Shown here: positions 37,493 to 56,307 of the stretch, one piece after another | How the letters are laid out: each line of letters begins with the position of its first letter | How positions within the stretch are numbered: position 1 is the first letter of the stretch | NCBI GenBank assembly: GCA_963720565.1 | Contig: CAVRFW010000005.1 | Location: 32,001 to 96,000 of the forward strand | DNA length: 64,000 nt | Reading direction: 5' to 3' | DNA from: Candidatus Bathyarchaeota archaeon | Lineage (GTDB): Archaea; Thermoproteota; Bathyarchaeia; Bathyarchaeales; Bathycorpusculaceae | Translations under genes and position numbers: made by a program | The notes under the pieces: model-generated | The model's database searches: none | What the model was told of the DNA's origin: nothing | The model's input: only the letters and a program-made list of their open reading frames with translations

Positions 37493-37660
37493 ACACCCTA
37501 ATTCCTTTATTGTAATAGCAACGTATACTGCTCTGAGGTTAGAGCACTGTGAGAGACGCAGAAGAAAAATATAGCATCTGGTAACAACCCGGAGAAAACT
37601 GAATTTTCTAAATAACAGAGTCAATTCTCGTGGTTGTTAACACGTTCTCTAACACTGTGG

Positions 37661-39301: not shown

Positions 39302-39470
39302 ACAACTTCTCCTCCACGTACAATTACTATGACTTGACACAGTAAAAGGTTTCCCAAATTGCCTTTTTCATGACGTGGAAACCTAAGGAATCGTAACAAT
39401 CCAGTGAGAAACAAAAATATTGCATGAAAAAGTGAGTGAGCAAAAAATGTCACTATACCCACTGTATCAA

Positions 39471-40052
39471 CTATTTCACTGTTACTTTGTGCTTTTTAGG
39501 CGCGGGTGCAATCGTCTTCTTTGGGATGCAAACTTCAAGTAATCCGTCCCTGAATGTGGATTCGGCCTTCTCAGGGATTACTTCTTCTGGGAACGACAGC
39601 TGTTTGTAAACATGCGAGTAAGTGCGTTCTCTGACAACAAAGTTCTTCCCCTTGTCTTCCTTTTCAACATCTGTTTCAGCCGAGATTTCGATACCATCCT
39701 TCGTCAGCGCCACGTCGATCTTGTCTTTTGCTACGCCAGGCAGCTCAGCATGCACTACAAACATTTTTCCCTCATCAACCAAATCTACAGTTGCCTCACG
39801 GACCGGAACAACAGGCTCAGCCCTAATCCAATCCCACGGAAAAGCTATACTTTGAGGAAAAGCTATGCTTTCAATGAAATTTCTGCGAAAATTATCCATC
39901 AAATCGTCAAAGGTCGTCAGAACATGAACTGCAGGGATATGCTTAGCAGGAATATGTTTAGCAGGAAGATGTTTTATAGGTTTTACTGCGATTTCAGTTT
40001 TTGTGACCGCCTTCACCGGCGTCTTTTTTTCTTCTTTACTCATTTTTTTCAC
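39471..40052 (-). CDS. Hsp20/alpha-crystallin small heat-shock protein
   Basis: AELPGV.KDKI, RER, F..GLLEV.IPK. Confidence 0.93.
   Translation of the reverse strand: MKKMSKEEKKTPVKAVTKTEIAVKPIKHLPAKHIPAKHIPAVHVLTTFDDLMDNFRRNFIESIAFPQSIAFPWDWIRAEPVVPVREATVDLVDEGKMFVVHAELPGVAKDKIDVALTKDGIEISAETDVEKEDKGKNFVVRERTYSHVYKQLSFPEEVIPEKAESTFRDGLLEVCIPKKTIAPAPKKHKVTVK
39930..39974. repeat. 3 x 15-bp in-frame tandem repeat in hsp20 (KHLPA-KHIPA-KHIPA)
   Basis: tgcagggatatgctt / agcaggaatatgttt / agcaggaagatgttt. Confidence 0.9.
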
Positions 40053-40261
40053 CTCAATTAATTTATTATTAGTATTCAGTCTTCCTTATTACGTCTGGAA
40101 AAGGAACTTTTTCAACGCCACATTCTGAAACGGGGGGACCTCAGCTATTAGCCCTCACGCGCTCATAGCCTTTAGGTGTTGAGGGCTGGCTGGCTTTCCC
40201 CTACTGCTTTTTCCCAAAGGGACTTAAAATGGAGTTATTTGGAGATAGCGGGGACGTGGGC

Positions 40262-40405
40262 TTACTCGTTTTTGGCAATCCATGTTTTTACTGCTTCTTC
40301 GACGGCTCGGGTTAAGTCGCCTTTTTTCCCGCTGAACCTCTCGATTGTTTTGAACCTGAGCTGTTTCTCCAGCTCGTCTGGAAGCTCCACGCATATACGA
40401 CCCAT
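40262..40405 (-). CDS. 47-aa ribbon-helix-helix-like protein, not in ORF track (MGRICVELPDELEKQLRFKTIERFSGKKGDLTRAVEEAVKTWIAKNE)
   Basis: Hand translation; GGTGA RBS; beta-strand then LPDEL helix and ..AVEEAV..W helix. Confidence 0.75.
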   Translation of the reverse strand: MGRICVELPDELEKQLRFKTIERFSGKKGDLTRAVEEAVKTWIAKNE

Positions 40406-40778
40406 TTTTGTTCACCGATTTTTATTTTATCAAGTTTTTTGTGCACGTTTCGACGTGTCAGATGTTTTTCCAATAAGCGAATTGCCAGATACTAATTTTC
40501 ATGTTTGTTTTTGTAATCATTTTTATTCACCTTATTCGCTTATCCACATAATACATAATGTGCATACTTGCTTATAAGGGTATTGATTTATATGTTTACG
40601 CGTGGCGCGTTTATTGGTTTCCCTACGAGTTTAAGGAACTGTTAGAAGAGATTTACCGGAATTATATGGAAAGGAAATAGGTAGCTTGCTTACTCTTAAG
40701 ATTTTCAATCAAAAAGGACTAAATACTAAAGTTGATAACAGCAGTTAACACAGGCAACCGGAAACAAGTGAGAAAAGA

Positions 40779-41015
40779 TTGACGAAAGAATGCAAATTTT
40801 GCGGATGCGAGTTAACTGAGGAAGAAATCGAAAAATACGGTTGTCTGTCAACCGAGGAAGAGGGCATAAAAATTGACACCCCTATATGCCCCGTTTGCGC
40901 TCTGACCAAAACCAAATTGGGCAAGGCAGTACCTGAAGAGGAACGCGAGAAATTCCTAGAAGAGTGGATACGCAGAAAGGTACCACATGAACCACGCGCT
41001 CCAGCCAGTGAGTAA
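40779..41015 (+). CDS. Small Zn-finger hypothetical protein
   Basis: CKFCG...CPVC. Confidence 0.7.
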   Translation: MTKECKFCGCELTEEEIEKYGCLSTEEEGIKIDTPICPVCALTKTKLGKAVPEEEREKFLEEWIRRKVPHEPRAPASE

Positions 41016-41113
41016 AATTTTTAAAGCGTGCGCGACATAGATAGTCGATTATTTCTTCAACGAACAAGACATAGGTAACAGTTAATCGCAAGTTTGAAGG
41101 GGGACTTTGACAA

Positions 41114-41209
41114 ATGGTTCACTGTTTATGCGGCAAAGACGCTAACGTGTTCGAGAGCGGCAAGACGGAATGTATTGATTGCTACTTGAAGCGGAAAAAA
41201 AGGCTGTAA
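41114..41209 (+). CDS. 31-aa CxC-x13-CxxC microprotein, copy 1 (MVHCLCGKDANVFESGKTECIDCYLKRKKRL)
   Basis: Hand translation; paralogs at 44532 and 56004; GAAGGGGG RBS-like. Confidence 0.8.
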   Translation: MVHCLCGKDANVFESGKTECIDCYLKRKKRL

Positions 41210-41338
41210 ACGCGGATAGCTGTCCCGAAATCAGTCGCTTGCGCGCGCGATTCTGTTCAGCTATTATGTTTTTGCGTTTTTCAATGGGACATAAGTGTTA
41301 AACGGCAAACTAACTTAATGCACATTGGAGGGAATAAT

Positions 41339-41791
41339 GTGTATGAAGAGTTCATTGATAAACTGAAAAAGCGAAAAGAAGAGCGTCAAGAAGACTACGA
41401 TCGACTCAAAGGTATGATAGCAGGATTTCGTTTAACCAATTTCAACCAAACAGAAGAGAGCTTAGTTTTAATTGTTGAGTACGCAATGAACAGTTTCAAA
41501 AATCATCAGGATTCTATTGACGCTCTCAAGGAAGCAACAATCTACTCATTTCAAAGACTTGAAACCTTAGAAAAAGAAATGAAACAGTTGAGAGCCACCT
41601 ATGGCATAAAAGGTGTCGCGCACGCTGAAGAGGCAGGAGGCAAAACGAATGAGGGTGCGGGACAATTGAACAGTGGAAAGAAGAATACAGGAGGGGCAAT
41701 CAAAATTAAGACCAAAACAAAAAACAAACCGAAAAACGAAACAAAAAGCAAAACAAAAAACAAAGGAAAAAAGACGTGGAAGCAGCAGTAA
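41339..41791 (+). CDS. Hypothetical coiled-coil protein with Lys-rich tail
   Basis: GTG after GGAGGG; KTKTKNKPKNETKSKTKNKGK tail. Confidence 0.65.
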   Translation: MYEEFIDKLKKRKEERQEDYDRLKGMIAGFRLTNFNQTEESLVLIVEYAMNSFKNHQDSIDALKEATIYSFQRLETLEKEMKQLRATYGIKGVAHAEEAGGKTNEGAGQLNSGKKNTGGAIKIKTKTKNKPKNETKSKTKNKGKKTWKQQ

Positions 41792-41985
41792 GAAGAATTA
41801 AAGAAAAATGAGCATAAAGAATAATTTCCTATGACAATATTCTCTGAAGACCTGATAGACCAAATCAAAGAACTGCTTGAAAGAGTGGCAGACCCACACA
41901 TAGTTAAAACAAGAGTTAAGTTCTATTCTTTCAAGGAGTTCCTTCAATAACAAGTTTATGTTGCCGTCTGCTCTCTAATTGTAGA

Positions 41986-42396
41986 GTGGTGATAAATGTG
42001 AACGCAAAGCAATTCTTCAGAATCGAAGTCAGCACAAGTTGGGGACATTTGATTAGGGAAAGGAAGACGCTGACTAAAGACGAAGAGAAAGTAAGAGAAG
42101 CAAGAAAGGCTTATCGTGATGGAATCAAAAAAGCATGGGACATTTACACCGAAGACAACATGATAGTAAAGGAAGCAAAGAAGACTCTTGACTCAGCAAT
42201 AGACGAAGCATACAAATCCTGCTTGCCCGAACATGGAGAGAGAATGGCACAAACAGAATATGAACAGGCAACCAAACTTTATTTCAAAACTTTATACAAA
42301 GTTCACCGCAAGTTTGCGGATACGATCGGACCAATTTGGGGTGTTTTCATGAAAGACATGGAGACTTCTCCAAGACTAACCAAGAAAAATACTTAG
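41986..42396 (+). CDS. Hypothetical helical protein (start uncertain)
   Basis: Long ORF only; no motif recognised. Confidence 0.55.
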   Translation: MVINVNAKQFFRIEVSTSWGHLIRERKTLTKDEEKVREARKAYRDGIKKAWDIYTEDNMIVKEAKKTLDSAIDEAYKSCLPEHGERMAQTEYEQATKLYFKTLYKVHRKFADTIGPIWGVFMKDMETSPRLTKKNT

Positions 42397-42651
42397 AAGC
42401 TAAACCAAAACCCTATTCATTCTCCACAGACTCATTGTGCAAGACCATGCGACTTTCAATGGGTATCCGAAAATATCACTCTAAACTATATAGTGGGGGA
42501 AAACCTTCCCCTCAAAATAATTTCGGGAAAAAAGGATTCGCGAATGACATCTCCACCTAGCTTGGAGTTCATATCCCAGCGCCCCTATTGATTGTCAGTT
42601 GCTTTCCGAGATGACAAGTCTAAAGTATGAAATTGCCCGATAGATGTTCTT

Positions 42652-43425
42652 ATGAAAGAAAGAACCAAAACATTACTGATTCTGGTTGTGCTTCTCATAT
42701 GCTCGTTTCTCCCTGTCTTTACGGCATCGCCTTTTCCCCAACAAGACAGCTCACTTGTCATCAAAGAAGTCCTAATGAAGACCTCAGTCGCATACCTGTG
42801 GCTCAGCCCGATCGTACATGTCATTACTGTGGTACTGTTTATCGTTCTTTACCTTTATGGATCCCGAGTAGGCAGAATTGCCGACGTCTTTTTCGCCATT
42901 CTGTTTTTGTTCATTGCCTTCAGCAATCATATCGCTGTCACTGACACTTATGGACTTGCGGTGGTAACAGGAAACCTGGTTCCAATACTAATCGTAGGGC
43001 TCCTCTGGATTTGGGAGGTTTACAGACCTCAGAACAATTATGCTTTCGAGAGGCTTCCAGCGTGGAGATACTGGGTCTTGCCCTTTGCCTTCTTGGCTTT
43101 CTGGTCTCCAATAAACGCACAGCTAAACCCTGATTTCAATCCGTTGTTGCTTCTAAACTCTTCCTTCGGTGTAATGTACTGTCCCACAACACCAGTCATA
43201 ATCGCCCTACTTACTCTACTCTACCCAAGAGTCAACACAATTGTCCTCAGAGCAACCAGTTTTGTGGGATTAATAATGGGTCTGTTCAATGTCATGTCGT
43301 ATTTCATAATGCCAGGATATACCCTGTGGAATCTGGTTCTTCACACGCCACTCATATTTATTTCCCTGTACGGCTTGCTGATCCCAACCTTAGCAAAGAC
43401 TAACCTCTCGCGGCACGCTCGATAA
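42652..43425 (+). CDS. Multi-pass membrane protein
   Basis: About 8 hydrophobic segments; MYCPTTP motif. Confidence 0.75.
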   Translation: MKERTKTLLILVVLLICSFLPVFTASPFPQQDSSLVIKEVLMKTSVAYLWLSPIVHVITVVLFIVLYLYGSRVGRIADVFFAILFLFIAFSNHIAVTDTYGLAVVTGNLVPILIVGLLWIWEVYRPQNNYAFERLPAWRYWVLPFAFLAFWSPINAQLNPDFNPLLLLNSSFGVMYCPTTPVIIALLTLLYPRVNTIVLRATSFVGLIMGLFNVMSYFIMPGYTLWNLVLHTPLIFISLYGLLIPTLAKTNLSRHAR

Positions 43426-43437
43426 CAGAAAGGGCGG

Positions 43438-43869
43438 TCATTTGGGCAAATCATTAGACTGTGCGCTCGTCTTCTTCTTGTTGTATGAGTACTGATAGTA
43501 CCCGTAGGAACTCATCATGACAAAGAAAGCAATCACAAGCATGCTTCCGTAGAGTCGCGACGTCAGGTATCCGTACCAGTTTAGTCCTATGCTGCCAATG
43601 AAGAGAAGTAACAGGTAGATGATGAGACCTGGCGGCCAGCGTTTGGGGTGATGAAGGGGTTTCTTTCTAGTTATCAATCTGTACCAGAGGTCGTAGACCA
43701 AGTAGATGATTATTGGCAGTTCAGCTAGCAAGCGTCCAGAGTCGTTGCCAAAGAGTAAGTTCAATATCCAAAGCAAAGCAAAAGGAATCAGCTGGGCACT
43801 AAATGCGATTCTCAACTTGAGCTCAAACTTCGAGAGTTCACGAGCACGCAGAAGATACACAACAAACAA
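43438..43869 (-). CDS. Membrane protein (5' end uncertain)
   Basis: 4-5 hydrophobic segments. Confidence 0.65.
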   Translation of the reverse strand: MFVVYLLRARELSKFELKLRIAFSAQLIPFALLWILNLLFGNDSGRLLAELPIIIYLVYDLWYRLITRKKPLHHPKRWPPGLIIYLLLLFIGSIGLNWYGYLTSRLYGSMLVIAFFVMMSSYGYYQYSYNKKKTSAQSNDLPK

Positions 43870-43989
43870 GAAGGCATAGAAGACCAGTGCGAAGAAAACT
43901 ACAAGGTTGTCTAGCGCGCGGTCGTCATTGTGTGCAAGTTGGAGCTACGCCTATTAGTGAGTGTGTTAGTGTGTGTTGCGGTGATTGGA

Positions 43990-44406
43990 ATGAGGGCTGG
44001 TTTGCTCCTATGTAGATATGAGAATGCAGAGGATTATTCTGTTGGCAGGCGGTTTCGCTTTGCTGTTGTTGATTTGGACAAAGGTAAGAATTATCCATTG
44101 AATTTTGTTTGTATGTTGCCGACGAAAATAGAAGCTGCTGGTAAGTCGCAAAGTGTCTTTCTGCAGATATTTGGAGACAAGAGCGTGGAGCAGGCTAGGG
44201 TATTGTTGACTGGGGCTTTGGAGACCGAGAGTGATCCTGAGGTTAAAGCGGAGATTGAAAGAAGGTTGAAGCTGCTTGAAGTTAAACCAATCAGTTAAAT
44301 CGAATGTAGCGCTTGCAGAAAATTGTTTCAGCTTGGGCGAGTGAGAGGGTTTAAGCAGAAATTCTGTCAAGAGTGTGTGAAGGAAAAGTTCGGCAGTCGT
44401 GAATGA
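43990..44406 (+). pseudogene. Hypothetical protein with C-terminal Zn finger cut off by in-frame TAA (44296-44298)
   Basis: Same frame continues IECSACRKLF...KFCQECVKEKFGSRE*. Confidence 0.65.
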
Positions 44407-44531
44407 GAAAACCCTCTAACGCGCCAGAAAGCACATAGTAAAATTGTGGCCAAACCCTTGAAGACTTGGCTTTCGACATATGACAACACACACAAGATGA
44501 TTTAAAATGAGGCATTCAAGAACGTCCTATT

Positions 44532-44627
44532 ATGAACGAGAAGTGTAGTTGTGGTTCTTTCCCGAATGTTTGGGAAAACGGAAAACGCGAATGTTCAGAT
44601 TGCTATTTGAAGCGAATTAAAGGGTAG
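44532..44627 (+). CDS. 31-aa CxC-x13-CxxC microprotein, copy 2 (MNEKCSCGSFPNVWENGKRECSDCYLKRIKG)
   Basis: Hand translation; TTTAAAA at 44501 suits a leaderless transcript. Confidence 0.75.
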   Translation: MNEKCSCGSFPNVWENGKRECSDCYLKRIKG

Positions 44628-45266
44628 AATCTGAAAAGGGTTGTTCGGGGATTCTGAACCGTTTCGAGTGTGTAAGAGAGTTTTGTAATCCGTGTTTTAG
44701 ATTGCGGTTTGTTTCGGCGTTGAAAAATCATTAATATCGGTTTTAGTCCAACCAGAGAGGCTTCGAGATGGAATGGAGAGTTTTAAACGAAGAATTAGTT
44801 GACTTTCTATCGTGCAAAAGAAAAAGGCGACTCGAAGTCAGGAGCGTCAGGCTTTTGGAAAAGCTAAGGAAATAGCGCGCGGTTACACGTTACCTAGAAA
44901 AACATCCTGTTGATGCGTCAGGTTTGATTCATGTCGGAATGATACGCCTTGAAGTTGAAGCATACAAACCATTCTCAAAAAGCACGCGTGAAGAAACTCG
45001 ATAAACCTAAAGAAACAACGTATAATCGCCAATTTTTGGATTTATGCCAGAAATGGGAAAAAAGGAGAAAAGGGCTGCGGAGAAAACATTATGCTGGCGA
45101 TATCACCCAAGAATGGTCGGTCCGTACTAGACTACAGGCCCCCATACTTTGAGAAGAAATAACTTGTGCTAAAGGATTTAAGGCTTGTTTATTGCGCGCT
45201 TGATGAGGTTATCTGATTTGCCTTCAGTCATCAGAGGTAACTTGAAAGCATCTTTCTGGCAGCATG

Positions 45267-46424
45267 CTATGGAACATAGGCTGAGTTGTTCCAGAAAATG
45301 TATTTGCTGTAGGTGGCGTCTAATGCCAATCCATCATCATATATTATGTCGAGATTGTTCGGGTATTGATCCATCCAATAGTCTAAGCTCGTGCATATTT
45401 CAAGCGAAAACGCATCTGCTTCCCATAACCCCCAGATCCTATCAGTGGGTCCTCTGAGACCGTACCCGTAGTCTTTCGGAAGGACAAAAGCAACCCTATC
45501 ACTGCTTCTCATGCTTCGGTCAGGATTGGCTTCTATGTACCGCCAGAACCGCTTCAAAGCATCAAAGTGTTCCTGTTGGAGAGTGCCATCCGTGTAGTCT
45601 TCATTGCTGTCAAAGACCAAAACGTACTTCGCGCCGCTATCATACGCCATGACAAGGTTCTCGTAGAGATGCTCGCCCGACGAGAGGTATGGAGGTTCGG
45701 TGTATTTCCAAGTTATCATAACACCCCACTCCCTGTTTTGAATTGTGGCTGCTCCCCTGCAGGCAGCTACATTTAACCTTCTGCTATAGTTAAGCGCGAA
45801 TTCTGCGAAGACAACATCATAGCCTGCTCTATAATCGAACCAGTAAAGGGCATAATCAGATGTGAAAGCTTGAACGCCTTCAATCTCGGTCGCATTCGAA
45901 GTAGAGCTCTCCAGCATTTTTTCCAAGTGAGCAACGAACTGGATGCTCGCGTCCGTATAGTTGTCTGCTTCGCGGACGATTCTATATGTCCATAAGTCCA
46001 GGTTCTTCCCGCCGACCTCGTCAAAAACATACAAACCCAAAAAACGGTCGCCCCATTTCACTTTCGCGTTTTCTATCCATTGTCTCGAAGGCTGAGTGGG
46101 AGGATCATGATCATCTGTGAACACGATAAACGATAATCCTTTATCATAAACGTACTGACAAAGGTCAACGAGTTTTGTCTCATTAAAAGTTATGCCAGTG
46201 CTGCCTATAACGAACAGGTTCGTGTATGAACTGACCTCGTCAATCAAAGCCTTAATCTCGACGACGTCATCGTAAGCCGCATCGATTCCAACGTAAAAAT
46301 CTGTGGACCGGTTTGGTCTTGGCTTTTCAGAGGCTAAAAAGAAATTCGCCACGAGAAGAGAAACAATTAGCAAAGATGACAGAAGAAGCAGGAAGTATCT
46401 GGGTTTCATTTGCACCTTAAACAA
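45267..46424 (-). CDS. Secreted/membrane-anchored hypothetical protein, possibly TIM-barrel glycoside-hydrolase-like
   Basis: N-terminal TM; GLYVFDE, FTSDYALYWFDY, WGVMITW; functional guess is weak. Confidence 0.7.
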   Translation of the reverse strand: MFKVQMKPRYFLLLLSSLLIVSLLVANFFLASEKPRPNRSTDFYVGIDAAYDDVVEIKALIDEVSSYTNLFVIGSTGITFNETKLVDLCQYVYDKGLSFIVFTDDHDPPTQPSRQWIENAKVKWGDRFLGLYVFDEVGGKNLDLWTYRIVREADNYTDASIQFVAHLEKMLESSTSNATEIEGVQAFTSDYALYWFDYRAGYDVVFAEFALNYSRRLNVAACRGAATIQNREWGVMITWKYTEPPYLSSGEHLYENLVMAYDSGAKYVLVFDSNEDYTDGTLQQEHFDALKRFWRYIEANPDRSMRSSDRVAFVLPKDYGYGLRGPTDRIWGLWEADAFSLEICTSLDYWMDQYPNNLDIIYDDGLALDATYSKYIFWNNSAYVP

Positions 46425-46527
46425 TAAGCAAGTCTAAAATAAGGATTTTCCACATTCCTCGTTTAATTCAAAGTACTATTAGTGCACTTTCGCCTTGGAG
46501 TGCCAGAGAAGTACTGAAGGTTTGTGG

Positions 46528-46704
46528 CTACTTGAGGTTTGTTCCGCAGTTGGGACATTTAAGGTAGTCTGTCTTAACTTCCTTAAGCAAATCAGCGCCA
46601 CAGTAAAAACATATGCAAACCTTGCATCTTGGACAGAAGTAGTTGGCGCTTTGGATGGTTTTGTTGCAGACTATGCAAGGTTTGCCCACACATTCATTCG
46701 ACAT
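46528..46704 (-). CDS. 58-aa Cys-rich RING-like protein
   Basis: CIVC-x10-CPRC-x4-CFYC-x14-CPNC. Confidence 0.75.
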   Translation of the reverse strand: MSNECVGKPCIVCNKTIQSANYFCPRCKVCICFYCGADLLKEVKTDYLKCPNCGTNLK

Positions 46705-46966
46705 TCTTGAATAGCTCGCTGATAGAAATGGCTTAACACAGCTAATAAGTCTTGAAGAGACAGCATACGCCACAGCGGCAGAAGCAGCGCGTCGCAACTA
46801 ACTACTTTCCTGAGAATTTTCGTCAAAAATAGGATACAGAGTTTCCGAATTTTTTAACTAAACTGCCTTTGCGCGGAAAAAATCCAATGAAGAGGAATAA
46901 TCCACAAACGTTAAATTCACAGCATTGGTAACTTTAACAAATTTCATTGCCAACAGAGCTGATACC

Positions 46967-48888
46967 ATGAAAGTAATCTCTAAAGAAGACTTCAAGGATT
47001 TTGTGAATGCGTTAATCAAAGATGATTCTAGGCACGTCATTGGGGTGAAAGCTCGGGGAAACAAATTCGCCTTCGGCACACTGGAGTCAGCGGATGAGCT
47101 TCGACTTGACTACGACGTTACGCTATTGCCTCCGAAGAAATACTTCTTTCCCCAACGTGAAACGCTTTTCACCTATGATCTTGCAGATGGTTTTTCAGCG
47201 AAAAACCCTGAAGACGCTAAACCCATGTTGATAATAGGTGTTCACCCTTATGACATTGTTGCCCTGCTTCACATGGATGAAATATTCAGGGATACAAAAT
47301 CTGATCCGTACTACTTCAAGAAAAGAGAGATCATCCATCATAATTGGTGTAAACATTCAGAAAATGTCCAAATGGAATTTCTCTTCCTTCATGGGCTGCA
47401 GCGTTATCGACTATGGTTATGACCTCATGCTTACTGATTTAGGCAATAGATACGGAATCAACGTTGGCTCTTCAAAAGGAGAAGCACTTCTACTGAAGTA
47501 CGCAAAAAACATCATGCCGGCGTTGGCACGTGATATCCAAATCGCAGGGCAGAAGAAACAAGAAGTATGGAAGATGGTCCAGCAGAAACTGGATTTTCCA
47601 GCTGAACTGATCCCAGAGTTGCTGGGAGCAAGCTACTCAAGAAGCGGATTCTGGGAGAGCCATTCCGAGAAATGCTTAGCTTGCGGATCTTGCGTGCTGG
47701 TTTGCCCAACGTGCTACTGCTTCGACGTGAAAGATAATCCAGATTTGACCTTGGAGCAGGGTGAAAGAATCAGGACTTGGGATGGTTGCCTGCTCGAAGA
47801 TTTCGCCAAAATAGCTTCAGGAGAAAATTTCCGTGCGACCAGACCAACCCGTTATCGCCACCGTTACTTCAAGAAGGGAAAATACCTGTTCGACAGGTTC
47901 GGCTTCGTCTCTTGCGTAGGATGCGGAAGATGCTCCTCGAACTGTCTTCCAGACATTGCAAACCCCGTTAACTTGTTCAACGACATGTACCATGAAAGCC
48001 AAAACAGCGGAATGCAAATGCCCTCTTCAGCCACCCAGCCAGACGTAAGCATCAGCACCGAAGGAAACATTGACTACGTACCCGAACTCGGAACCATAAT
48101 AAAGAAAGTGCCAATGACGGCCTACGAAACCTTGTTCGAGATTAGACTGGACGATGGTTCAGAGCTTGGACACAAACCAGGACAATTTGTTGAAGTTTCA
48201 GTCTTCGGCATTGGCGAAGCACCCATATCAATTTCATCGTCCCCAACAAAAAAGAAAACGTTTGAACTCTGTGTGCGGAAACTGGGAAACGTCACAACGA
48301 GAATGCATAATCTGAATGTTGGAGCCAAAGTTGGAATAAGAGGCCCGTTTGGCAACGGTTTCGACGTTGAATCCCTGAAAGGAAAAGACCTGCTATTCGT
48401 AGCAGGCGGTTTGGGGATAGCCCCACTAAGATCCCTGTTCAATTTTGTGTTAGACAGAAGAAAGGACTATGGACGTGTCACTCTTCTCTATGGCTGCAAA
48501 GAGCCAAAAGAAATGCTTTTCGGGGAAGAACTTGCCCTGCTCAGCTTCAAGAGATGATGTTGAATTCAAATCCACAGTAAACTGGTGCCCAGAAAACGAG
48601 TTGTGGTCAGGCAACATAGGCGTAATTACAACGCTCATTCCGCTAGTCGAATTTGACCCCGAAAAGACTACCGCGATACTGTGCGGTCCACCTGTAATGT
48701 ACAAATTCGTCATTGCAGAACTAAAGAACCGAAATGTGCCGGACGAGAACATCATCATGTCCCTCGAACGGAGAATGAAATGTGGTGTAGGCAAATGCGG
48801 GCACTGCCAAATCAACCAAATCTATGTCTGCAAGGATGGCCCCGTTTTCAACTATTCCAAGATTAAAGGCGTTCCGGAGGCGCTGTAA
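46967..48888 (+). CDS. Group 3b hydrogenase/sulfhydrogenase beta-gamma fusion; frameshifts near 47331 and 48543
   Basis: LPPKKYFFP; CLACGSC..VCPTCYC; CVGCGRC...C; PGQF, GEAPIS, GPFGNGF, AGGLG.APL, CGPPVM, MKCGVGKCGHC..C.DGPVF. Confidence 0.9.
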
Positions 48889-49625
48889 TGAAACCCAAAG
48901 TCGCATTCTTCGACTTCGCAGGCTGTGAGGGAGACCAACTTCAAGTAGCCAATCTAGAAGAAGAACTCCTGACTCTGCTGGGACAAGTTGAAGTCGTCAC
49001 CTTCAGAGAAGTCATGAAAGAGCACAACGACAACTATGAAATAGCTTTCATTGAAGGATCATGCACTCGACTGCAGGATGAAGATAGACTGAAACAGATC
49101 AGGAAGAACGCGAAAATCGTTGTCGCCATAGGCTCGTGTGCAGCTATTGGAGGCATTAATTCACTCAGAAACTACAAAGACCTAGAAGGCGTCAAGAAAA
49201 CCGTCTACGGAGAAAACGCAAAACTTTTCGATAGCTACGCAGCCAGACCGATAGACGCCATAATACCCGTAGACGCGTATGTTTATGGTTGCCCCATAGA
49301 CAGAGACGACTTTCTTCATGTAGTCAAATCGCTCTTGCTTGGAAAAAAACCTGAAACACCCACATACCCAGTCTGTGTTGAATGCAAGAAGAACGAAAAC
49401 ATATGCGCCTTTGAACGCGGCCAATTCTGTGTTGGACCAGTCACAAGGGCAGGCTGTAATTCCTGCTGCGTAAATGAAGGAACAATCTGTTGGGGCTGCC
49501 GAGGCTTTGTGGACAATCCAAACGAGAATGCCCACAAGGAAGTCTTGATAAAATACGGTCTCACAGTTGACGATGCAATAGGCAAGTTTAAGTTATACTT
49601 CGGTTGGCAGGAGGCAAAAAGATGA
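48888..49625 (+). CDS. Group 3b [NiFe]-hydrogenase small (delta) subunit
   Basis: GCEGD, EGS, GSCA..GG, GCP, CVEC..C..C.GPVT.AGC...C...CWGCRG. Confidence 0.93.
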   Translation: MKPKVAFFDFAGCEGDQLQVANLEEELLTLLGQVEVVTFREVMKEHNDNYEIAFIEGSCTRLQDEDRLKQIRKNAKIVVAIGSCAAIGGINSLRNYKDLEGVKKTVYGENAKLFDSYAARPIDAIIPVDAYVYGCPIDRDDFLHVVKSLLLGKKPETPTYPVCVECKKNENICAFERGQFCVGPVTRAGCNSCCVNEGTICWGCRGFVDNPNENAHKEVLIKYGLTVDDAIGKFKLYFGWQEAKR

Positions 49626-50932
49626 AAAACCAAAATATCGAAGTTGCCGTGCACCATGTTACAAGGGTAGAAGGGCACGGAAACATCTACGTGAACATAC
49701 AGAAAGGCGTTGTTGAAAAGTGCGAGTGGAGTATTCCAGAAGCCCCGAGATTCTTTGAAGCAATGGTAGAAGGCAGATCTTGGAACGAGCTACACCATAT
49801 TACTTCACGCATCTGCGGGATATGCTCTATTGGACACTCACTAGCCTCCTTGAAAGCCACCGAAGCAGCTCTGGGCATAACGATTAGTGAACAGGACCTC
49901 AAACTCAGAAAGCTCGCGCTTCACGGCGAGAACTTGCAGAGCCACATTCTACATTTGGGTTTTCTGGTGCTACCGGACCTCATGGGAGTAGGATCCGTCA
50001 TTCCTTTAGCTTCCACAAATTTGCCCGAGGTAAAGACCGTTCTGCGCCTCCACAGACTTGCAAATGAAATGTCAAATCTGGTTTGCGGGAGAACAACCCA
50101 TCCTCAAAGGCTAATCCCTGGAGGATTCTCCAAAATTCCCACAATTAAAGAATTAACTGAGCTTAGAAAGAAGCTCCAAGACTCAATCCCAAGCCTCCAA
50201 GCAGTAGCCGAACTCTTCAAAAGTCTAATGGACAAATTCCCCAAATTCAAAAGAGAAACCGAGTTCATCGCGTTGACAGACCCAAACGAGTACGCACTCT
50301 ATGACGGGCTAATAGCTTCATCAGATACAGGTACAGCTCCCGCGCGAGAATACTTGGCCTTCGCCAATGAATATGTGGTTCCAAGATCAACGGCTAAATG
50401 GGCTAAACACGTGCGCGAATCCTACATGGTTGGCGCTTTGGCTAGACTAAACATCAACTACAAGAGACTTTCACCGATGGCTCGCGAAACATCCGACAAG
50501 TTCAATCTACTGCCAATGTGCCATAATCCATTCATGAACAATATCGCCCAACTTGTTGAAGTAGTTCACGGCTTCGAAGACTCTATTCGCCTGATCAATG
50601 AACTTGAAGCAACAGGTTTGCAGAGTCAACCAGAGTACCACAAACCAGAAATCAAAGTAAAAGCAGGTCAAGGAGTCGGAGCAGTAGAGGTACCCAGAGG
50701 GATACTATTCCACGACTACACCTACAACGCCAAGGGAGTATGTACGAAAGCAAACTGCATAATCCCAACAAACCAAAATCACGCCAACATAGAATTAGAC
50801 ATGAAGGCGCTCCTACCACAGATCATTGAAAAATCACAGAAAGAGATTGAATTAACACTAGAAATGCTTGTGAGAGCATATGATCCCTGTATATCATGCT
50901 CAACTCACGCGGTCAAAGTAAACTTCACCTGA
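49622..50932 (+). CDS. Group 3b [NiFe]-hydrogenase large (alpha) subunit
   Basis: RVEGHG, SRICGIC, EVPRG, YDPCISCSTH. Confidence 0.96.
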   Translation: MKNQNIEVAVHHVTRVEGHGNIYVNIQKGVVEKCEWSIPEAPRFFEAMVEGRSWNELHHITSRICGICSIGHSLASLKATEAALGITISEQDLKLRKLALHGENLQSHILHLGFLVLPDLMGVGSVIPLASTNLPEVKTVLRLHRLANEMSNLVCGRTTHPQRLIPGGFSKIPTIKELTELRKKLQDSIPSLQAVAELFKSLMDKFPKFKRETEFIALTDPNEYALYDGLIASSDTGTAPAREYLAFANEYVVPRSTAKWAKHVRESYMVGALARLNINYKRLSPMARETSDKFNLLPMCHNPFMNNIAQLVEVVHGFEDSIRLINELEATGLQSQPEYHKPEIKVKAGQGVGAVEVPRGILFHDYTYNAKGVCTKANCIIPTNQNHANIELDMKALLPQIIEKSQKEIELTLEMLVRAYDPCISCSTHAVKVNFT

Positions 50933-51052
50933 GCCCAAGTTTCAAAACTCCTTTTCCAGAAAAGTTATCAGACTAAAACATACAATATAGTATCAGCTCC
51001 AATAAAGCTGGCATCTTCAGTACAAAAATCCAGATTTGAGAGGAAAACAGTA

Positions 51053-53725
51053 TTGGGTGTAGAGAACCTCAAACTCTTCTTCAATCCTAAGGCCATTGCG
51101 GTCATAGGAGCAAGCGACCGCGAAGATTCCATAGGAGGAAAAATACTTCGCAACCTGGCCGGACATTATAACGGCATAGTTTTTCCAGTGAACCCCTTCA
51201 GAAGAACTGTAAATGGAGTCACAGCCTTTTCCACCGTTGAAAGACTACCTTCTAAAGCTGACTTGGCAATTATTGCGACTCCGGCCCATACAATCCCTCA
51301 AATAGTTGAAGAATGCGGTAAAGCAGCAATAACAAACATAATTATTGTTTCCGCAGGCTTTGAGAAGAACGTTGCAGAAGTAAAAGATCTTAATCAACGA
51401 ATTTTGGAACTGAAACGGACTTACAATCTCCGAATCATGGGGCCCAACAGTTTTGGAGTAATGAGACCCAAAGCCAATTTGTATGCAACTTTCGGAGACA
51501 AAAAGGCAATACCAGGAAAGATCGCATTCATATCTCAAAGCGCCGCACTCTGTGGATTAGTACTTGACTGGTCTCATGAGACTCATGTCGGCCTGAGTGC
51601 AGTGGTCTCCACAGGCACGTCAATGGACGTTAACATCAGTGACTTAGTTGACTATTTCGGAGAAGACCCTCAAACCAGAGCCATTATGCTCTATTTTGAA
51701 GACTTAAAGAACATACGATCTTTCATGAGTGCAGCAAGAGGATTTGCCAGAACCAAACCAATAGTTCTTGTCAAAGCTAGTCGCTTCACAAGAGAAAGAG
51801 AAAGTTCAGAAGTTAGCACTAATGACTTCACTGATGAAGATGAGATTTTCGATGCCGCATTTCGCCGCGTCGGGGTTGTCCGCGTAGATACAATCACTGA
51901 ACTTCTAGCCTGCGGAAGAACCCTATCGATGCAACCAAACCCCAGTGAAAACTGCTTGACGATAGTTACCAACGCAAGCGGGCCAGGAACAATGGCTGTC
52001 GACGAACTCAGGGCTAGAGGCGGTGAACTCTGGAAACCCAGCGGAAACACGATAGATTTACTGAAAAACATTTTGCCTTACTACTGCAACATCTCGAACC
52101 CTGTCGATGTTTTGGAAGAGGCAGCTCCTGAAAGATTCAGAAGAGTGTTACAGGTTTGCATAGATGATCCCGCGGTAACAAGCCTACTGCTAATCTACAC
52201 ATCTCTCGGCACCACCGAACCTCACAGCATAGCGAACATTGTTATGGAGACAACTGCAAAGAAAGGAAAGACTTTTCTAGCTGTTATAATGGGAGAGGAC
52301 AAAAACTGCCAAGAAGCAAGAAGACTACTGAACTGCAACGGTATTCCTGCATTTGAGACCCCGGAAGAAGCCGTTTCCACATTCATGCACATGTACACGT
52401 ACACGAAAAATCTGCAGTTGCTATATCAAACTCCTGAAGAACTCGAGCTAACCTCAGACGTACCAGCACACCTTAGGGGAATCATACGACGTGCTTTCCG
52501 TGAAGGAAGAAAGTCACTCAACCTGCCTGAAGCGCTAGGTTTCCTAGATGCATACAGAATACCAACTGTGAAATCAATGGTCGCCCGGAACGCAGAGGAG
52601 GCAAAAAACAAGGCTGCTGAAATTGGTTTCCCCGTAAAAATCCAAGCTTTATGTTCAACACCACTCTCTAAACCCATTCAAGAGAACTTCTGCTGCGACG
52701 CAGATTCCCTGTCTGAGGTTGAAACTTCGTATAACAAGATTGCGGAAAAAACGGAAAAGTCTGCCTTAGCAGAGTTTCAGGGAACACTAATTCAGCCAAA
52801 ACCCAGAACAGAGGGGCGCAGCTTGTTTGCTGGGTCAAGAAAAACCCCCAAATTCGGCTCCATTATCCTCTTCGGAAGCAGCAGAGCTGGAAAGACACAT
52901 AAAAGACCTGTCAGCATAGGCTTTCCGCCTCTAAATCAGGTTCTCGCCAAACAGATTGTTGAAAACTCGGATTTCACACAATACGTACGCGCTCACCCGA
53001 ATAATCACAACAAAATAAAAGGCGCTATTGAAGAAACACTGGTGAAACTATCTCAGCTTGTAATAGACTTCCCTGAAATAAGAGAGATCGATGTAGATCC
53101 ATTGATTCTTGAAGACAACTGTGTGTATGCAGCAGATGCTTACATCACTATTGACGGAGATAGACTAATGCGTGAAGCATCTGACCATCATGAGCATCTA
53201 GTCATCTCGCCGTACCCCAAAAAATACGTTGCAGTTCGAACCTTGAAAAACGGGCTACAAGTTAGATTACGACCTATAAAGCCTGAAGACGAGAACCGCT
53301 TCAATACACTTTTCAAGTCTTTGTCTGAGGAAAGCGTCAGACTCCGATTCTTTGAAACCATAAAAGAGCTATCTCACGACACCCTGACTCGATACTGCAA
53401 TTTGGATTACGATCGGGAAATAGCCATAGTAGCTGAATTTCAAGATGACAAGAGAATCATCGGTGTGGTAAGAATAATACCTGACCTTGCGGGAAAAACT
53501 GGCGAATTTGCTATTATGGTTGGAGATGAGTGGCAAGGATTAGGGTTAGGTTCAAAACTCATGGACATAATCTCCGAGGTTGCACAGGATTTGAAGCTGA
53601 TGAAAATTCACAGTTACGTCAGTCGAGCTAACACCAAGATGATCAGGATGTGCACAAAAAAAGGATTTGAGACCGAGCCAATAGACGAATACGTGATAAG
53701 CATGTCGAAAAAGCTATCACCCTAA
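51053..53725 (+). CDS. Acyl-CoA synthetase (NDP-forming)-like / GNAT fusion, Pat-type protein lysine acetyltransferase
   Basis: IAVIGAS, GPNSFG, ISQSAA, NPVD, LRPIKPED, DYDREIA, WQGLGLG. Confidence 0.9.
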   Translation: MGVENLKLFFNPKAIAVIGASDREDSIGGKILRNLAGHYNGIVFPVNPFRRTVNGVTAFSTVERLPSKADLAIIATPAHTIPQIVEECGKAAITNIIIVSAGFEKNVAEVKDLNQRILELKRTYNLRIMGPNSFGVMRPKANLYATFGDKKAIPGKIAFISQSAALCGLVLDWSHETHVGLSAVVSTGTSMDVNISDLVDYFGEDPQTRAIMLYFEDLKNIRSFMSAARGFARTKPIVLVKASRFTRERESSEVSTNDFTDEDEIFDAAFRRVGVVRVDTITELLACGRTLSMQPNPSENCLTIVTNASGPGTMAVDELRARGGELWKPSGNTIDLLKNILPYYCNISNPVDVLEEAAPERFRRVLQVCIDDPAVTSLLLIYTSLGTTEPHSIANIVMETTAKKGKTFLAVIMGEDKNCQEARRLLNCNGIPAFETPEEAVSTFMHMYTYTKNLQLLYQTPEELELTSDVPAHLRGIIRRAFREGRKSLNLPEALGFLDAYRIPTVKSMVARNAEEAKNKAAEIGFPVKIQALCSTPLSKPIQENFCCDADSLSEVETSYNKIAEKTEKSALAEFQGTLIQPKPRTEGRSLFAGSRKTPKFGSIILFGSSRAGKTHKRPVSIGFPPLNQVLAKQIVENSDFTQYVRAHPNNHNKIKGAIEETLVKLSQLVIDFPEIREIDVDPLILEDNCVYAADAYITIDGDRLMREASDHHEHLVISPYPKKYVAVRTLKNGLQVRLRPIKPEDENRFNTLFKSLSEESVRLRFFETIKELSHDTLTRYCNLDYDREIAIVAEFQDDKRIIGVVRIIPDLAGKTGEFAIMVGDEWQGLGLGSKLMDIISEVAQDLKLMKIHSYVSRANTKMIRMCTKKGFETEPIDEYVISMSKKLSP

Positions 53726-53746
53726 CCTCGTTCCATACGATTGAAC

Positions 53747-54079
53747 CTAAAGATCTAAATCGTTAAGGAATTTCCAGAAATCTTCCACAAATCTGACTAT
53801 CCGAACTTCCAAACAATTTGAACCTGCATACAGATCCTCGTCAGTTTCGCACTTGAAAAATCCGACGGTGTGAGGAAACCCTTCCTGAAACTCGGGGTTT
53901 TCGACCACTTCAAACAGGCAAACAAGTTTGTCCGCAATCTTTCTTTTGCGATCTGAAAAGAAGACCGAGTAGTTTGGGTATTTTTTTCCCCTATTTCCCA
54001 AGTTGGGAAACGTAATTATCCATTCTAACTCTTGAAAACAAAATTTTTTTTCCAACTTTTCAGTAACCTCTGCACCCAA
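53747..54079 (-). CDS. Hypothetical protein
   Basis: ORF fills the gap; no motif recognised. Confidence 0.55.
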   Translation of the reverse strand: MGAEVTEKLEKKFCFQELEWIITFPNLGNRGKKYPNYSVFFSDRKRKIADKLVCLFEVVENPEFQEGFPHTVGFFKCETDEDLYAGSNCLEVRIVRFVEDFWKFLNDLDL

Positions 54080-54136
54080 TCGCTGCCAAACTATTGTGAC
54101 GCAAGTTCAAAATAAGATTTGTTGAAAGATGCTTCC

Positions 54137-54625
54137 CTATGACGCTCGCGTTAACGTCACGTGAAACGTGGCTTGTCCGCCAGGCGGAAAAATGAAGAAC
54201 ACAGTGTAGCTTTGAGGTGTCGATCCGCCGAACCCCCTTGTAAAGGGAGTGCTACCTCTTATCTCAGCATCCGCACTCTCTATTTCTTTCAAGATTGGGT
54301 ACAGGTCCTCGGACATGCACTTATTATCAATTCCTTTGTCCCAGTAACCCCTGTAAATGTATACTTCAGTCCAACCGTTGTCTCCGCCAGGCATTTTGGT
54401 GCAGCTTATCGTCAACAAACAATTCTCGTTTGCGCCAGTAGCTACGGGCACATAACAGACTGACACTGTCGCGTTTAGAAACCTGAGGCAGTCATTTGTT
54501 CCGCTAATAATAAAATCGAGTTCTCTCGGGGTGGCCTGAGGCGAAGCCAACGAGAACATAACAAGAAAAACAGCTAAAGCGCAAACAACCACAGAAATAA
54601 TAACTCGAACCCAGAAACCTCTCAT
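54137..54625 (-). CDS. Membrane-anchored/secreted hypothetical protein
   Basis: N-terminal TM; GGAGTGG upstream. Confidence 0.7.
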   Translation of the reverse strand: MRGFWVRVIISVVVCALAVFLVMFSLASPQATPRELDFIISGTNDCLRFLNATVSVCYVPVATGANENCLLTISCTKMPGGDNGWTEVYIYRGYWDKGIDNKCMSEDLYPILKEIESADAEIRGSTPFTRGFGGSTPQSYTVFFIFPPGGQATFHVTLTRAS

Positions 54626-54856
54626 TCTAATGCCACTCCTTCAACCATCTCTATTAAATGCCACATTGTTTGCAGCTGAAGCAAACTTCTCGTTCAACGT
54701 TCCTACAATCCAATTGTTCTTAAATCTTTAGGCTAAGGACACCGAATCCGCCATTAAATCTGAGAAACGAACTTGCGTGTTCCAGACGCGGAACAATTTG
54801 TTCCTTGAGTAGAACTAAATTCAGCATTAACCCTTAGGATATGCGGTGAGCTCTGC

Positions 54857-55897
54857 ATGGGAAAATGGCTTGAAAAATATGCTGATTCAATCAGATTTTG
54901 GATTTTAGTTGTTGTTGTAACCTATTTTGCATACGCCGTCTATTATGCGGCGAGTGGCATGCGTGACAGCTTTGGCATGCTTTCCAATCAGTTCATTTAC
55001 ACTTCGCTGTCAAGTAACCCTTGGTGGTGGATGATTCTCTTCTACGGCAGCGAAGGCCTTTCAGGTTCGATATCAATAATCAGTCGCGCAGTCGCTGGAG
55101 CCTTCGCCGCTTATGCAGCCTTTCTGTTTTGGAGGAAAAAAGACAGGGCAATACCGCAGGTAAAAAGGATTGCATGCAACGCATTGATATTCGAAGCCCT
55201 GTTCTTTCTCGCCCTGATTCCTTCAATTATAGCCGCTGCTGCCTACAACCTGTCAAGCGAAAATCTATTCTATTTCGGCCATACTCCCGGAATACTGCTC
55301 ATCTACGGCACATTAGTCCCAATTCTCGCAATCGTCATAACCGTTCCGCCACTCCTGCTTAAGTTGCGCTCAACAATCAAACACGAGGCATCTGGCCAAG
55401 GAATCATTAAATGGTCAAGCTTGACGGCAGTCGCCTATCTCCTCTTCGTCTTCTGGTTCAATTATACGATGCTGTGGGCAGGTGTCACAGTTCCCTACGC
55501 ACAAGTCTACGAGCAGTGGGGACTGGATTTCGTGCTTCAACCTGCTAACATGGTGAGCTTCTGTCTCACTATCATCGGTCTGCTGGCTTTAACCCTTTCA
55601 GCACTGAAAACAGCGATGCCTACAATCAAAAAACGAACACTAACGCCAAACCTAACCCGTATTGGCACAATTATGACATTGTTTGGAGGCTACTTCGTAT
55701 TCAACGTGTTCTACTACTACCTCACGGGCGGTTACGCTGCACACCCGAGTGTATGGTATGAAGTTATAGGACCGCTGCATAACCCCAACTTATGGGCAAT
55801 AGCTCTAGTCTTCCTTGGGTTACCGCTGATAGCCTATGACAGAAATAAAAGAAGCCTAGAAATGGACAATAAAACTGGGTTGACCCAGACTGCGTAG
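54857..55897 (+). CDS. Multi-pass membrane protein
   Basis: About 8 hydrophobic segments with weak two-fold internal similarity. Confidence 0.75.
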   Translation: MGKWLEKYADSIRFWILVVVVTYFAYAVYYAASGMRDSFGMLSNQFIYTSLSSNPWWWMILFYGSEGLSGSISIISRAVAGAFAAYAAFLFWRKKDRAIPQVKRIACNALIFEALFFLALIPSIIAAAAYNLSSENLFYFGHTPGILLIYGTLVPILAIVITVPPLLLKLRSTIKHEASGQGIIKWSSLTAVAYLLFVFWFNYTMLWAGVTVPYAQVYEQWGLDFVLQPANMVSFCLTIIGLLALTLSALKTAMPTIKKRTLTPNLTRIGTIMTLFGGYFVFNVFYYYLTGGYAAHPSVWYEVIGPLHNPNLWAIALVFLGLPLIAYDRNKRSLEMDNKTGLTQTA

Positions 55898-56003
55898 TCA
55901 AAAGGTCAAACTTAAAAGGAGTACCCTACATACATAGCTGATGCTTCTTCGAAGAACAAGAGGCCAAAAACGGTTAATCGCAAGTTTGAGGGGACTCTGA
56001 AAA

Positions 56004-56099
56004 TTGGCTCAATGTTCATGCGGCAAAAACGCTAACGTGTTCGAACGCGGCAAAACAGAATGCATCGACTGCTACCTACAACGAAAAAGAAAACTGTAA
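56004..56099 (+). CDS. 31-aa CxC-x13-CxxC microprotein, copy 3 (MAQCSCGKNANVFERGKTECIDCYLQRKRKL; TTG start)
   Basis: Hand translation; 23/31 identical to copy 1; GAGGGG RBS. Confidence 0.8.
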   Translation: MAQCSCGKNANVFERGKTECIDCYLQRKRKL

Positions 56100-56307
56100 A
56101 CGCGTATAGCCTTCAAAATAGGTCGCCTAGTTGACATTCGAGATAAGGCAAAGTCGAATATGTACAATACTCAAATTCTATTCTGGAAGCCAAATATCGG
56201 GCAGCTCACTTAAACACGTGTTCTTTCTAATTGGCCTTGGATTGCGCTACGAAGTCTATAGGCTGGACACTCGTGCCGAACTGTAAGATTTAAGAAAAAC
56301 GGGCTTG

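What the first reader, a model, noticed from the sequence alone, without database searches (positions are those of the whole stretch)
41114..56099. Three dispersed paralogous 31-aa zinc-finger microprotein genes missed by the ORF track
Seen: 96-nt ORFs at 41114-41209, 44532-44627 and 56004-56099, each in a different intergenic gap. All share C-x-C-G-x3-N-V-[FW]-E-x-G-K-x-E-C-x-D-C-Y-L-[KQ]-R plus a basic tail. Copies 1 and 3 differ at 8 codons synonymously (e.g. TGT/TGC, ATT/ATC, GAT/GAC, TTG/CTA) while all four Cys are kept, which points to selection on the peptide. Each has a TATA-like element upstream. Inference: an expanded family of minimal Zn-binding regulatory or nucleic-acid-binding microproteins. 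I do not recognise the family.
Basis: partly seen in the sequence, partly recalled or inferred. Interest (0 to 1): 0.8.

Follow-up and report, generated by a model that had tools for sequence, protein, structure and literature searches.

The report
Virus-shared archaeal zinc-finger microprotein family
These three tiny genes belong to a conserved, uncatalogued family of 31-residue four-cysteine proteins found in some Bathyarchaeia archaea and in a few of their viruses; the proteins are predicted to fold as single zinc fingers and likely act as small DNA- or RNA-binding regulators, though neither expression nor target has been tested.

Summary
Observation confirmed. The three 96-nt ORFs are real-looking genes, and the genome holds two more copies on contig C2. 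Selection acts on the peptide: pN/pS is 0.16 across 67 distinct cores, and all four Cys are kept in 54 of 54 peptides. Start codons are conserved, with either an SD or a leaderless layout. Full-length copies occur in 18 of 332 genomes of one Bathyarchaeia family, and in 0 of 297 genomes from other families. No Pfam, NCBIfam or PHROG model passes a useful threshold. AlphaFold2 (pLDDT 92) predicts a treble-clef C4 finger with a basic helix. New here: members also sit in three IMG/VR viral contigs and one provirus-like contig, three of the four just before the terminase genes. Host copies are stand-alone units of about 230-300 nt at many unrelated sites. Best guess: a nucleic-acid-binding regulator shared by virus and host (0.45); no target is shown. 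Multi-copy one-domain zinc-finger microproteins are a known archaeal kind, and this genome has several such families. So this is a new family of a known kind. The scan had not noted it on other DNA.

The parts
41114..41209 (+). Copy 1: 31-aa C-x-C-G-x12-C-x2-C-Y microprotein ORF, ATG start
   Evidence: 97% identical homolog in G002
41018..41026 (+). TATA-like box of copy 1, about 90 nt before the start; implies a leader of about 65 nt (inferred)
   Evidence: sequence; kept in relatives
41098..41103 (+). SD-like purine run of copy 1
   Evidence: sequence; SD-like run in 47 of 53 non-copy-2-type upstream regions
44532..44627 (+). Copy 2: 31-aa ORF, ATG start, most diverged copy (57-60% identical to copy 1)
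44471..44481 (+). Conserved upstream box (TTTCGACATAT) about 19 nt before the TATA box; candidate regulator site (inferred)
   Evidence: box plus TATA in 17 of 53 non-redundant loci, 0 of 49 downstream controls; one full match in this genome
44501..44507 (+). TATA-like box of copy 2, 24 nt before the ATG; layout of a leaderless mRNA (inferred)
   Evidence: sequence; 0 of 17 copy-2-type upstream regions have an SD-like run
56004..56099 (+). Copy 3: 31-aa ORF, TTG start; identical in DNA to copy 4 on contig C2
   Evidence: ATG, TTG or GTG at this position in relatives
55911..55918 (+). TATA-like box of copy 3
   Evidence: sequence; shared with copy 4 and relatives
55988..55993 (+). SD-like GAGGGG of copy 3
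   Evidence: sequence
55882..56184 (+). Approximate extent of the duplicated unit (promoter, leader, ORF, short 3' stretch) shared with copy 4; its first 230 nt also match loci with unrelated flanks

Best explanation
Each ORF is a stand-alone gene of a conserved 31-residue family shared by some Bathyarchaeia and their tailed viruses; its product is predicted to fold around one zinc ion as a treble-clef finger and likely uses its basic C-terminal helix to bind DNA or RNA as a small trans-acting regulator. Shown: the reading frame is under purifying selection; four Cys, Gly7, Val12 and Tyr24 are invariant; the tail is always net positive; the unit of promoter-like box, leader and ORF recurs at many unrelated sites; viral copies are optional inserts in gene strings with overlapping starts and stops. 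Predicted: the fold (knuckle, hairpin, helix 21-30). Inferred: transcription and translation, zinc as the metal, nucleic acid as the ligand, spread by short duplications and by virus-host exchange, and different promoters giving the copies different inputs. The direction of exchange is not resolved.
For: Selection: 0 of 67 distinct 72-nt cores have a stop in this frame against 38-67 in the other five frames; pN/pS 0.16 over 596 pairs; third positions vary 0.41 against 0.17 and 0.16; Cys codons switch between TGT and TGC. Expression signals: a start codon 2-7 codons before the first Cys in 69 of 70 distinct upstream regions; SD-like run in 47 of 53 non-copy-2-type and 0 of 17 copy-2-type regions. 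Fold: AF2 mean pLDDT 91.9; nearest solved folds are treble clefs (A20 finger Z 3.2, rmsd 1.5 over 28; B-box 3.1; TtuA 2.7; nuclear-receptor and GATA fingers 2.1-2.5). Charge: residues 26 onward are net +2 to +5 in 54 of 54 peptides. Viral context: downstream of a TrmB-like HTH gene in L098 and L201, and directly before the putative small terminase in L201 and L238. Papers on archaeal viruses treat such small CxxC proteins as probable regulators (PMC7230728, PMC10848311; passages).
Against: No direct evidence of expression or binding. All fold matches are weak (none at Z 5 or more, no Foldseek E <= 0.001), and the two best families (A20, B-box) bind proteins. The core (residues 4-25) is net 0 to -3. 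One 31-aa finger could read only a few bases. In Haloferax 5 of 14 predicted zinc-finger microproteins held no zinc and AF2 could not tell which (PMC11241148, abstract). No constant neighbour points to a target. Homologs were found by similarity in this frame, so the lack of stops is partly by construction, and the pairs are not independent.
Confidence: 0.45

Rival explanations
1. The peptide is a protein-binding adaptor or inhibitor. The conserved A-N-V-F-E hairpin and Tyr24-Leu25 would form a docking surface, as in A20, B-box or ClpG fingers, for one conserved host or viral protein.
For: Best structural neighbours are A20 fingers (Z 3.2 and 3.1), a B-box (3.1) and the ClpG finger (2.6). Asn11 (52 of 54), Glu14 (51 of 54) and an aromatic or Leu at 13 are kept, whereas viral look-alikes with the same Cys spacing have Asp at 11, so these residues are probably not needed for the fold alone.
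Against: Z differences under 1 are ties. No partner gene travels with it. The always-basic tail is not explained. The A20 Pfam model finds nothing in this genome at E 10.
Confidence: 0.28
2. The host copies are a tamed viral gene used against the viruses that carry it. Made in trans from several promoters, the finger would repress viral late genes or disturb packaging, giving superinfection immunity.
For: Four viral or provirus-like members form one clade (99/83) inside the family. Three lie one or two genes before the terminase pair. Host copies are patchy (18 of 332 genomes), multi-copy and at shifting sites, as defence genes often are (general knowledge). This genome keeps a lone related terminase pair on C9.
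Against: The tree has 29 columns and cannot give a direction. The gene is missing at that position in 12 of 12 other HTH-terminase loci and in the fetched DNA of 11 of 11 related viral contigs. Host neighbours are mostly housekeeping, stress or unknown genes, not defence genes.
Confidence: 0.12
3. The peptides are metal or redox buffers. Copy number would raise dosage and the sequence would matter mainly for its four thiols.
For: Four invariant Cys in 31 residues; two copies identical in DNA; some neighbours are stress or chromatin genes such as Hsp20, Alba and an SSB-like protein.
Against: Many non-Cys positions are nearly invariant; one metal per 31 residues is a poor store; no metal transport genes recur as neighbours.
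Confidence: 0.08
4. The unit is a small selfish or non-coding repeat and the ORF is incidental.
For: About 230 nt of DNA, including non-coding leader, are 73-82% alike between loci with unrelated flanks.
Against: Codon-position pattern and pN/pS 0.16; unrelated upstream DNA before the same peptide in several subfamilies; no shared terminal repeats; no Rfam match; no conserved leader structure.
Confidence: 0.03

Closest known systems
CxxC-x17-CxxC small proteins (Pfam PF23477 zf_Tbcl_2; eight in Methanosarcina mazei, PMC12704099, passages read)
   Same: Multi-copy archaeal one-domain C4 microproteins with a predicted treble clef and a basic tail; 7 matches in this same genome; zinc binding shown for two M. 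mazei members in that paper.
   Different: Spacing here is CxC-x13-CxxC; no member hits PF23477; profile-profile probability 6.8%; much narrower range; also seen in viruses.
Haloarchaeal C(P)XCG zinc-finger microproteins (PMC11241148 abstract and Introduction read; PMC6562870 abstract read)
   Same: Under 70 aa, four Cys in two pairs, often unannotated; regulatory phenotypes reported for several deletion mutants.
   Different: First pair is C-x-C-G (one residue between), which is not among the variants that paper lists; the second pair lacks Gly; homology was not tested by alignment.
Small CxxC-motif proteins of archaeal viruses (PMC7230728, PMC7911831, PMC10848311; passages read)
   Same: Short accessory zinc-finger ORFs in tightly packed viral gene strings, function unknown; Table S4 of PMC10848311 lists small 'zinc finger protein' ORFs in Bathyarchaeia viruses.
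   Different: Here close relatives (55-58% identical) also live as stand-alone chromosomal genes in several copies. That table holds no match to two family motifs, so I could not tell whether any listed ORF is a member.
Treble-clef fingers of solved structure: A20 (3vux, 3oj3), B-box (7vsp), TtuA N-terminus (5mko), nuclear-receptor first finger, GATA
   Same: Knuckle, hairpin and helix over the whole 31 residues, rmsd 1.3-2.3.
   Different: Z 2-3 only and 13-30% identity; those are domains of larger proteins; no sequence-level match except a half-hit to bL36m over residues 17-31 (E 0.002).
Unnamed 39-68 aa C-x-C-G-x-[KR]-A-D-[VI] proteins of uncultured viral contigs (19 IMG/VR loci); weakly phrog_23822
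   Same: Same Cys spacing, and Ala10 although it was not in the search pattern; 24-35 bits to the family profile; hhalign 97%.
   Different: They were picked by a pattern that fixed the spacing, so the score is inflated; Asp replaces Asn11; hosts not determined; shared ancestry or convergence is open.

Membership tests
Treble-clef zinc finger fold group | Zinc knuckle, loop, beta-hairpin and alpha-helix from N to C terminus (PMC4999995, passages) | tested here: met
   Predicted model only: short strands then helix 21-30, pLDDT 91.9; most top VIA rows are treble clefs
Treble-clef zinc finger fold group | Two ligands from the knuckle and two from the start of the helix | tested here: met
   Cys4 and Cys6; Cys20 and Cys23 at the helix start; invariant in 54 of 54
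Treble-clef zinc finger fold group | Binds one zinc ion | not testable with these tools
   Needs ICP-MS or native MS
CxxC-x17-CxxC (PF23477) | CxxC-x17-CxxC spacing | tested here: not met
   CxC-x13-CxxC in all 63 aligned members
CxxC-x17-CxxC (PF23477) | Match to the Pfam model or profile | tested here: not met
   0 of 63 members at E <= 1; hhalign probability 6.8%
Haloarchaeal C(P)XCG microproteins | Under 70 aa with four Cys in two pairs | tested here: met
   31 aa
Haloarchaeal C(P)XCG microproteins | Two C(P)XCG or listed variant motifs | tested here: not met
   C-x-C-G and C-x-x-C-Y against the definition in the Introduction of PMC11241148
A20-type zinc finger (PF01754) | Match to the Pfam model | tested here: not met
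   No member hits it at E <= 1; no match in this genome at E <= 10
A20-type zinc finger (PF01754) | Same fold | tested here: inconclusive
   Best row, but Z 3.2 and tied with other treble clefs
A20-type zinc finger (PF01754) | Ubiquitin binding, with a ubiquitin system in the host | tested here: inconclusive
   PF00240 and PF00179 not found in G000 (88.8% complete), but no control genome rang; binding not testable
Ribosomal protein bL36 | Full-length match with C-x2-C, then C and H ligands (ligand pattern recalled) | tested here: not met
   Match covers residues 17-31 only

The most novel reading that the evidence does not exclude
A 31-residue viral zinc finger from the packaging-gene region of Bathyarchaeia viruses has been captured by the host, given its own promoters and amplified to five copies, where it acts in trans as a minimal antiviral repressor or packaging blocker: a one-finger immunity gene.
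Probability: 0.12. Interest if true: 0.75.

Novelty: new member of a known kind. Interest (0 to 1): 0.4.

Why it matters
It adds a real gene family that gene callers mostly miss: none of the three window peptides is in a 15-billion-protein collection as an exact sequence. At 31 residues it is close to a bare treble-clef finger, so it is cheap to synthesise and test for metal, DNA, RNA or protein binding. Its presence both in viruses and as stand-alone host genes makes it a tractable case of microprotein traffic between archaeal viruses and hosts. Without a target the biological gain is modest.

Tried and rejected
Expression: no RNA holder was listed for 40000-46000; three same-study runs laid on 40500-45200 did not cover copies 1 or 2. 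Neither says anything about expression. Complex prediction of the viral member L201 with its putative small terminase plus zinc gave no verdict. Named families: none at a useful threshold in Pfam (best E 0.0046), NCBIfam (three window peptides only) or PHROGs (38 of 63 members weakly hit phrog_23822, best E 0.002). ESM Atlas gave only unnamed clusters under 0.9. Foldseek found nothing at E <= 0.001 in PDB or BFVD. No match among 50,697 annotated phage records. The first two viral scans found nothing because their patterns were too strict; members appeared through the HTH neighbour, a looser pattern and a virus-weighted alignment. Structured leader RNA: rejected (-3.7 kcal/mol, 7 pairs, no Rfam match). 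Shared regulon: the upstream box with its TATA occurs once in this genome. MITE-like ends: no repeat common to the five copies. A degenerate tandem copy after copy 2: rejected, 4 bits. Copies lying inside a provirus in this genome: not seen; the related terminase pair is on C9 with no finger beside it. The promoter tool covers sigma-70 only and was uninformative. Literature searches returned no description of this family; the library lacks most subscription papers.
Full report
Observation. The three ORFs are at the stated places and give 31-aa peptides with the consensus C-x-C-G-x3-N-V-[FW]-E-x-G-K-x-E-C-x-D-C-Y-L-[KQ]-R and a basic tail. Copy 3 starts with TTG. Copies 1 and 3 differ at 8 synonymous and 8 non-synonymous codons (dN 0.12, dS 1.2). 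The assembly (2.09 Mb, 88.8% complete) holds two more copies on contig C2: one identical to copy 3 over 96 of 96 nt, and one on the minus strand, also TTG. Record titles of the closest relatives name Bathyarchaeota or Bathyarchaeia, so I infer the same for this genome.

Range. With a 63-row alignment, 20 of 332 genomes of the genome's family match at E <= 0.001. Of these 18 are full length: this genome, 2 others of its genus, 13 of 120 in genus g17 and 2 in genus g30. The other two are broken: G001 is cut after residue 16, and G156 has lost all four Cys, three of them to Tyr. A class-wide sample gave 4 of 401, all in this family, and 0 of 297 in other families. Metagenomes gave 83 relatives among 177 candidate stretches, of which 80 were kept. 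A 7-row profile found 15 proteins among 1.84 billion representatives; the only name given in those clusters is 'hypothetical protein'. Absence from incomplete genomes is not shown.

It is a protein gene. Among 67 distinct 72-nt cores (two broken or cut loci, L041 and L079, left out), none has a stop in this frame, against 38-67 in the other five. pN/pS is 0.16 over 596 pairs, and third codon positions vary most. These pairs are related, and were found through this frame, so the figures overstate the support somewhat. In 54 distinct peptides the four Cys, Gly7, Val12 and Tyr24 are invariant. A start codon lies 2-7 codons before the first Cys in 69 of 70 upstream regions, switching among ATG, TTG and GTG. 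Two layouts occur: an SD-like run in 47 of 53 regions of most subfamilies, and none in 17 of 17 copy-2-type regions, where the ATG lies about 25 nt after the TATA box, as in a leaderless mRNA (inferred). A box TTTCGACATAT about 19 nt before the TATA is shared by the copy-2 type and a g17 subfamily: 17 of 53 non-redundant loci, 0 of 49 downstream controls, 0 in 200 shuffles. The pattern was drawn from these same sequences. It occurs in full only once in this genome, so it does not define a regulon.

Fold. AlphaFold2 gives mean pLDDT 91.9 with short strands and a helix at 21-30. The nearest solved structures are treble-clef fingers: A20 (Z 3.2, rmsd 1.5 over 28), B-box (3.1), TtuA (2.7), ClpG (2.6), nuclear-receptor and GATA fingers (2.1-2.5); 41 of 48,161 chains reach Z 2 and none Z 5. 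This fits the treble-clef definition in PMC4999995 (passages) but does not choose a function. The tail from residue 26 is net +2 to +5 in 54 of 54 peptides, and the core is 0 to -3.

Host context. Neighbours vary: 44 distinct left-right pairs in 55 loci with an ORF on both sides (inflated by false ORF calls and short contigs). They include Hsp20, Alba, an SSB-like OB protein, DUF5752, proteasome, PPDK, glycogen branching enzyme and winged-helix proteins (90 proteins scanned, drawn from 127 cluster representatives plus three added). Copies 3 and 4 share a block of about 300 nt from just before the TATA box to 85 nt past the stop. About 230 nt of it match loci with unrelated flanks at 73-82%. 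Orthologs of two flanking genes in G002 and G004 have no finger within the fetched 3.5 kb. No common terminal repeats were found. The unit therefore looks like a small stand-alone gene that is copied, moved and lost; how it moves is unknown.

Viral context. One homolog (L098, a 2.8-kb contig of G275) lies in the string HTH, finger, 108-aa ORF, putative small terminase, large terminase. Following that lead, L201 (IMG/VR) has HTH, finger, putative small terminase and large terminase with overlapping starts and stops. L238 has the finger directly before the putative small terminase. L236 has it among genes shared with a provirus of G001, and that provirus carries the truncated copy. The small-terminase label is my inference from position. 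The gene is optional: 12 of 12 other loci of this HTH subgroup abut the small terminase directly, and 11 of 11 related terminase contigs lack it in the fetched DNA. The four viral rows form a clade (99/83) in a 61-row, 29-column tree that cannot give the direction of transfer. A looser pattern found 35 viral stretches; 25 are free of stops and 22 of those have Ala10, which the pattern did not require: 3 family members and 19 look-alikes with [KR]-A-D-[VI]. The look-alikes score 24-35 bits against 58-64 for members. They may be a wider clan or convergent.

Mechanism. I commit to a one-finger nucleic-acid-binding regulator shared by virus and host (0.45), on the fold class, the constant basic helix and its place beside HTH genes in viruses. 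Every step beyond selection and context is inferred. A protein-binding adaptor (0.28) is nearly as good, given the A20 and B-box likeness and the conserved Asn11, Phe13 and Glu14. Captured antiviral use (0.12), metal buffering (0.08) and an incidental ORF (0.03) follow.

Comparison with what is known. It works like the multi-copy CxxC-x17-CxxC proteins (eight in M. mazei, two shown to bind zinc; PMC12704099, passages), but it is not a member. It resembles haloarchaeal C(P)XCG microproteins but fails their motif definition (PMC11241148, abstract and Introduction); that paper found 5 of 14 tested proteins zinc-free. PMC6562870 was seen as abstract only. Small CxxC proteins are common in archaeal viruses (PMC7911831 and PMC7230728, passages). 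Papers on Bathyarchaeia viruses and archaeal proviruses mention zinc fingers only in general or not at all (PMC10848311, PMC11705971, PMC13573593; passages). I searched the supplements of PMC10848311 only (first places shown, no motif match); those of the other papers, such as Table S6 of PMC13573593, were not read and could list a member. Eight searches found no description of this family.

Verdict. A real, apparently uncatalogued family of a known kind. The surprise is lowered by this genome's habit: 7 PF23477 matches and 47 small ORFs with two Cys pairs outside long ORFs, among them ribosomal proteins, likely false calls and several other paralog sets. The virus-host sharing is the most interesting point. 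Interest 0.4.

Noticed in passing
window 43930-44406 (+): The 122-aa ORF before copy 2 ends at an in-frame stop that is followed at once by a 35-codon open CxxC..CxxC zinc finger. The stop is present in 8 of 9 related loci (one is this window); L059 has Gln there. In 6 of the 8 the last Cys is Ser, which suggests decay after a nonsense change rather than read-through.
   Followed up: partly
window 40779-41015 (+) and 46528-46701 (-): Two more small Cys-rich ORFs near the copies: a 78-aa TTG-start CxxC..CxxC ORF just before copy 1, with an apparent paralog on C2, and a 57-aa double-zinc-ribbon-like ORF (weak Pfam hits).
   Followed up: no
G000, several contigs: Other uncatalogued small zinc-finger paralog sets of two or three copies each appear in the census of 47 small ORFs.
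   Followed up: no
L042 against window 54500-56170 and L006: A metagenome contig joins the left flank of copy 3 to the right flank of copy 4 across the shared unit: either recombination between copies or a misassembly at the repeat.
   Followed up: partly
G000:C9:19379-21244: A lone putative small terminase and large terminase pair, related to Bathyarchaeia virus genes, among cellular genes; looks like a provirus remnant.
   Followed up: partly
L170 (G001:C17:334000-353999): A head-tail provirus with major head, head-tail connector and tape measure matches, carrying a truncated family member before a winged-helix gene.
   Followed up: partly
L004 and L005 upstream regions: Two conserved small ORFs travel with the copy-5 and L005 subfamilies: a 53-59 aa basic ORF on the same strand (11 loci) and a 34-37 aa hydrophobic ORF on the other strand (9 loci).
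   Followed up: no
L203-L237 (IMG/VR): Nineteen viral contigs encode unnamed 39-68 aa zinc fingers with the same Cys spacing; no Pfam family above threshold for the six tested.
   Followed up: partly
window 35837-40052: Two convergent thermosome-like genes and an Hsp20 gene lie just before copy 1; Hsp20 also follows the gene in L003 and L050 (the thermosome label is my reading of the sequence).
   Followed up: no
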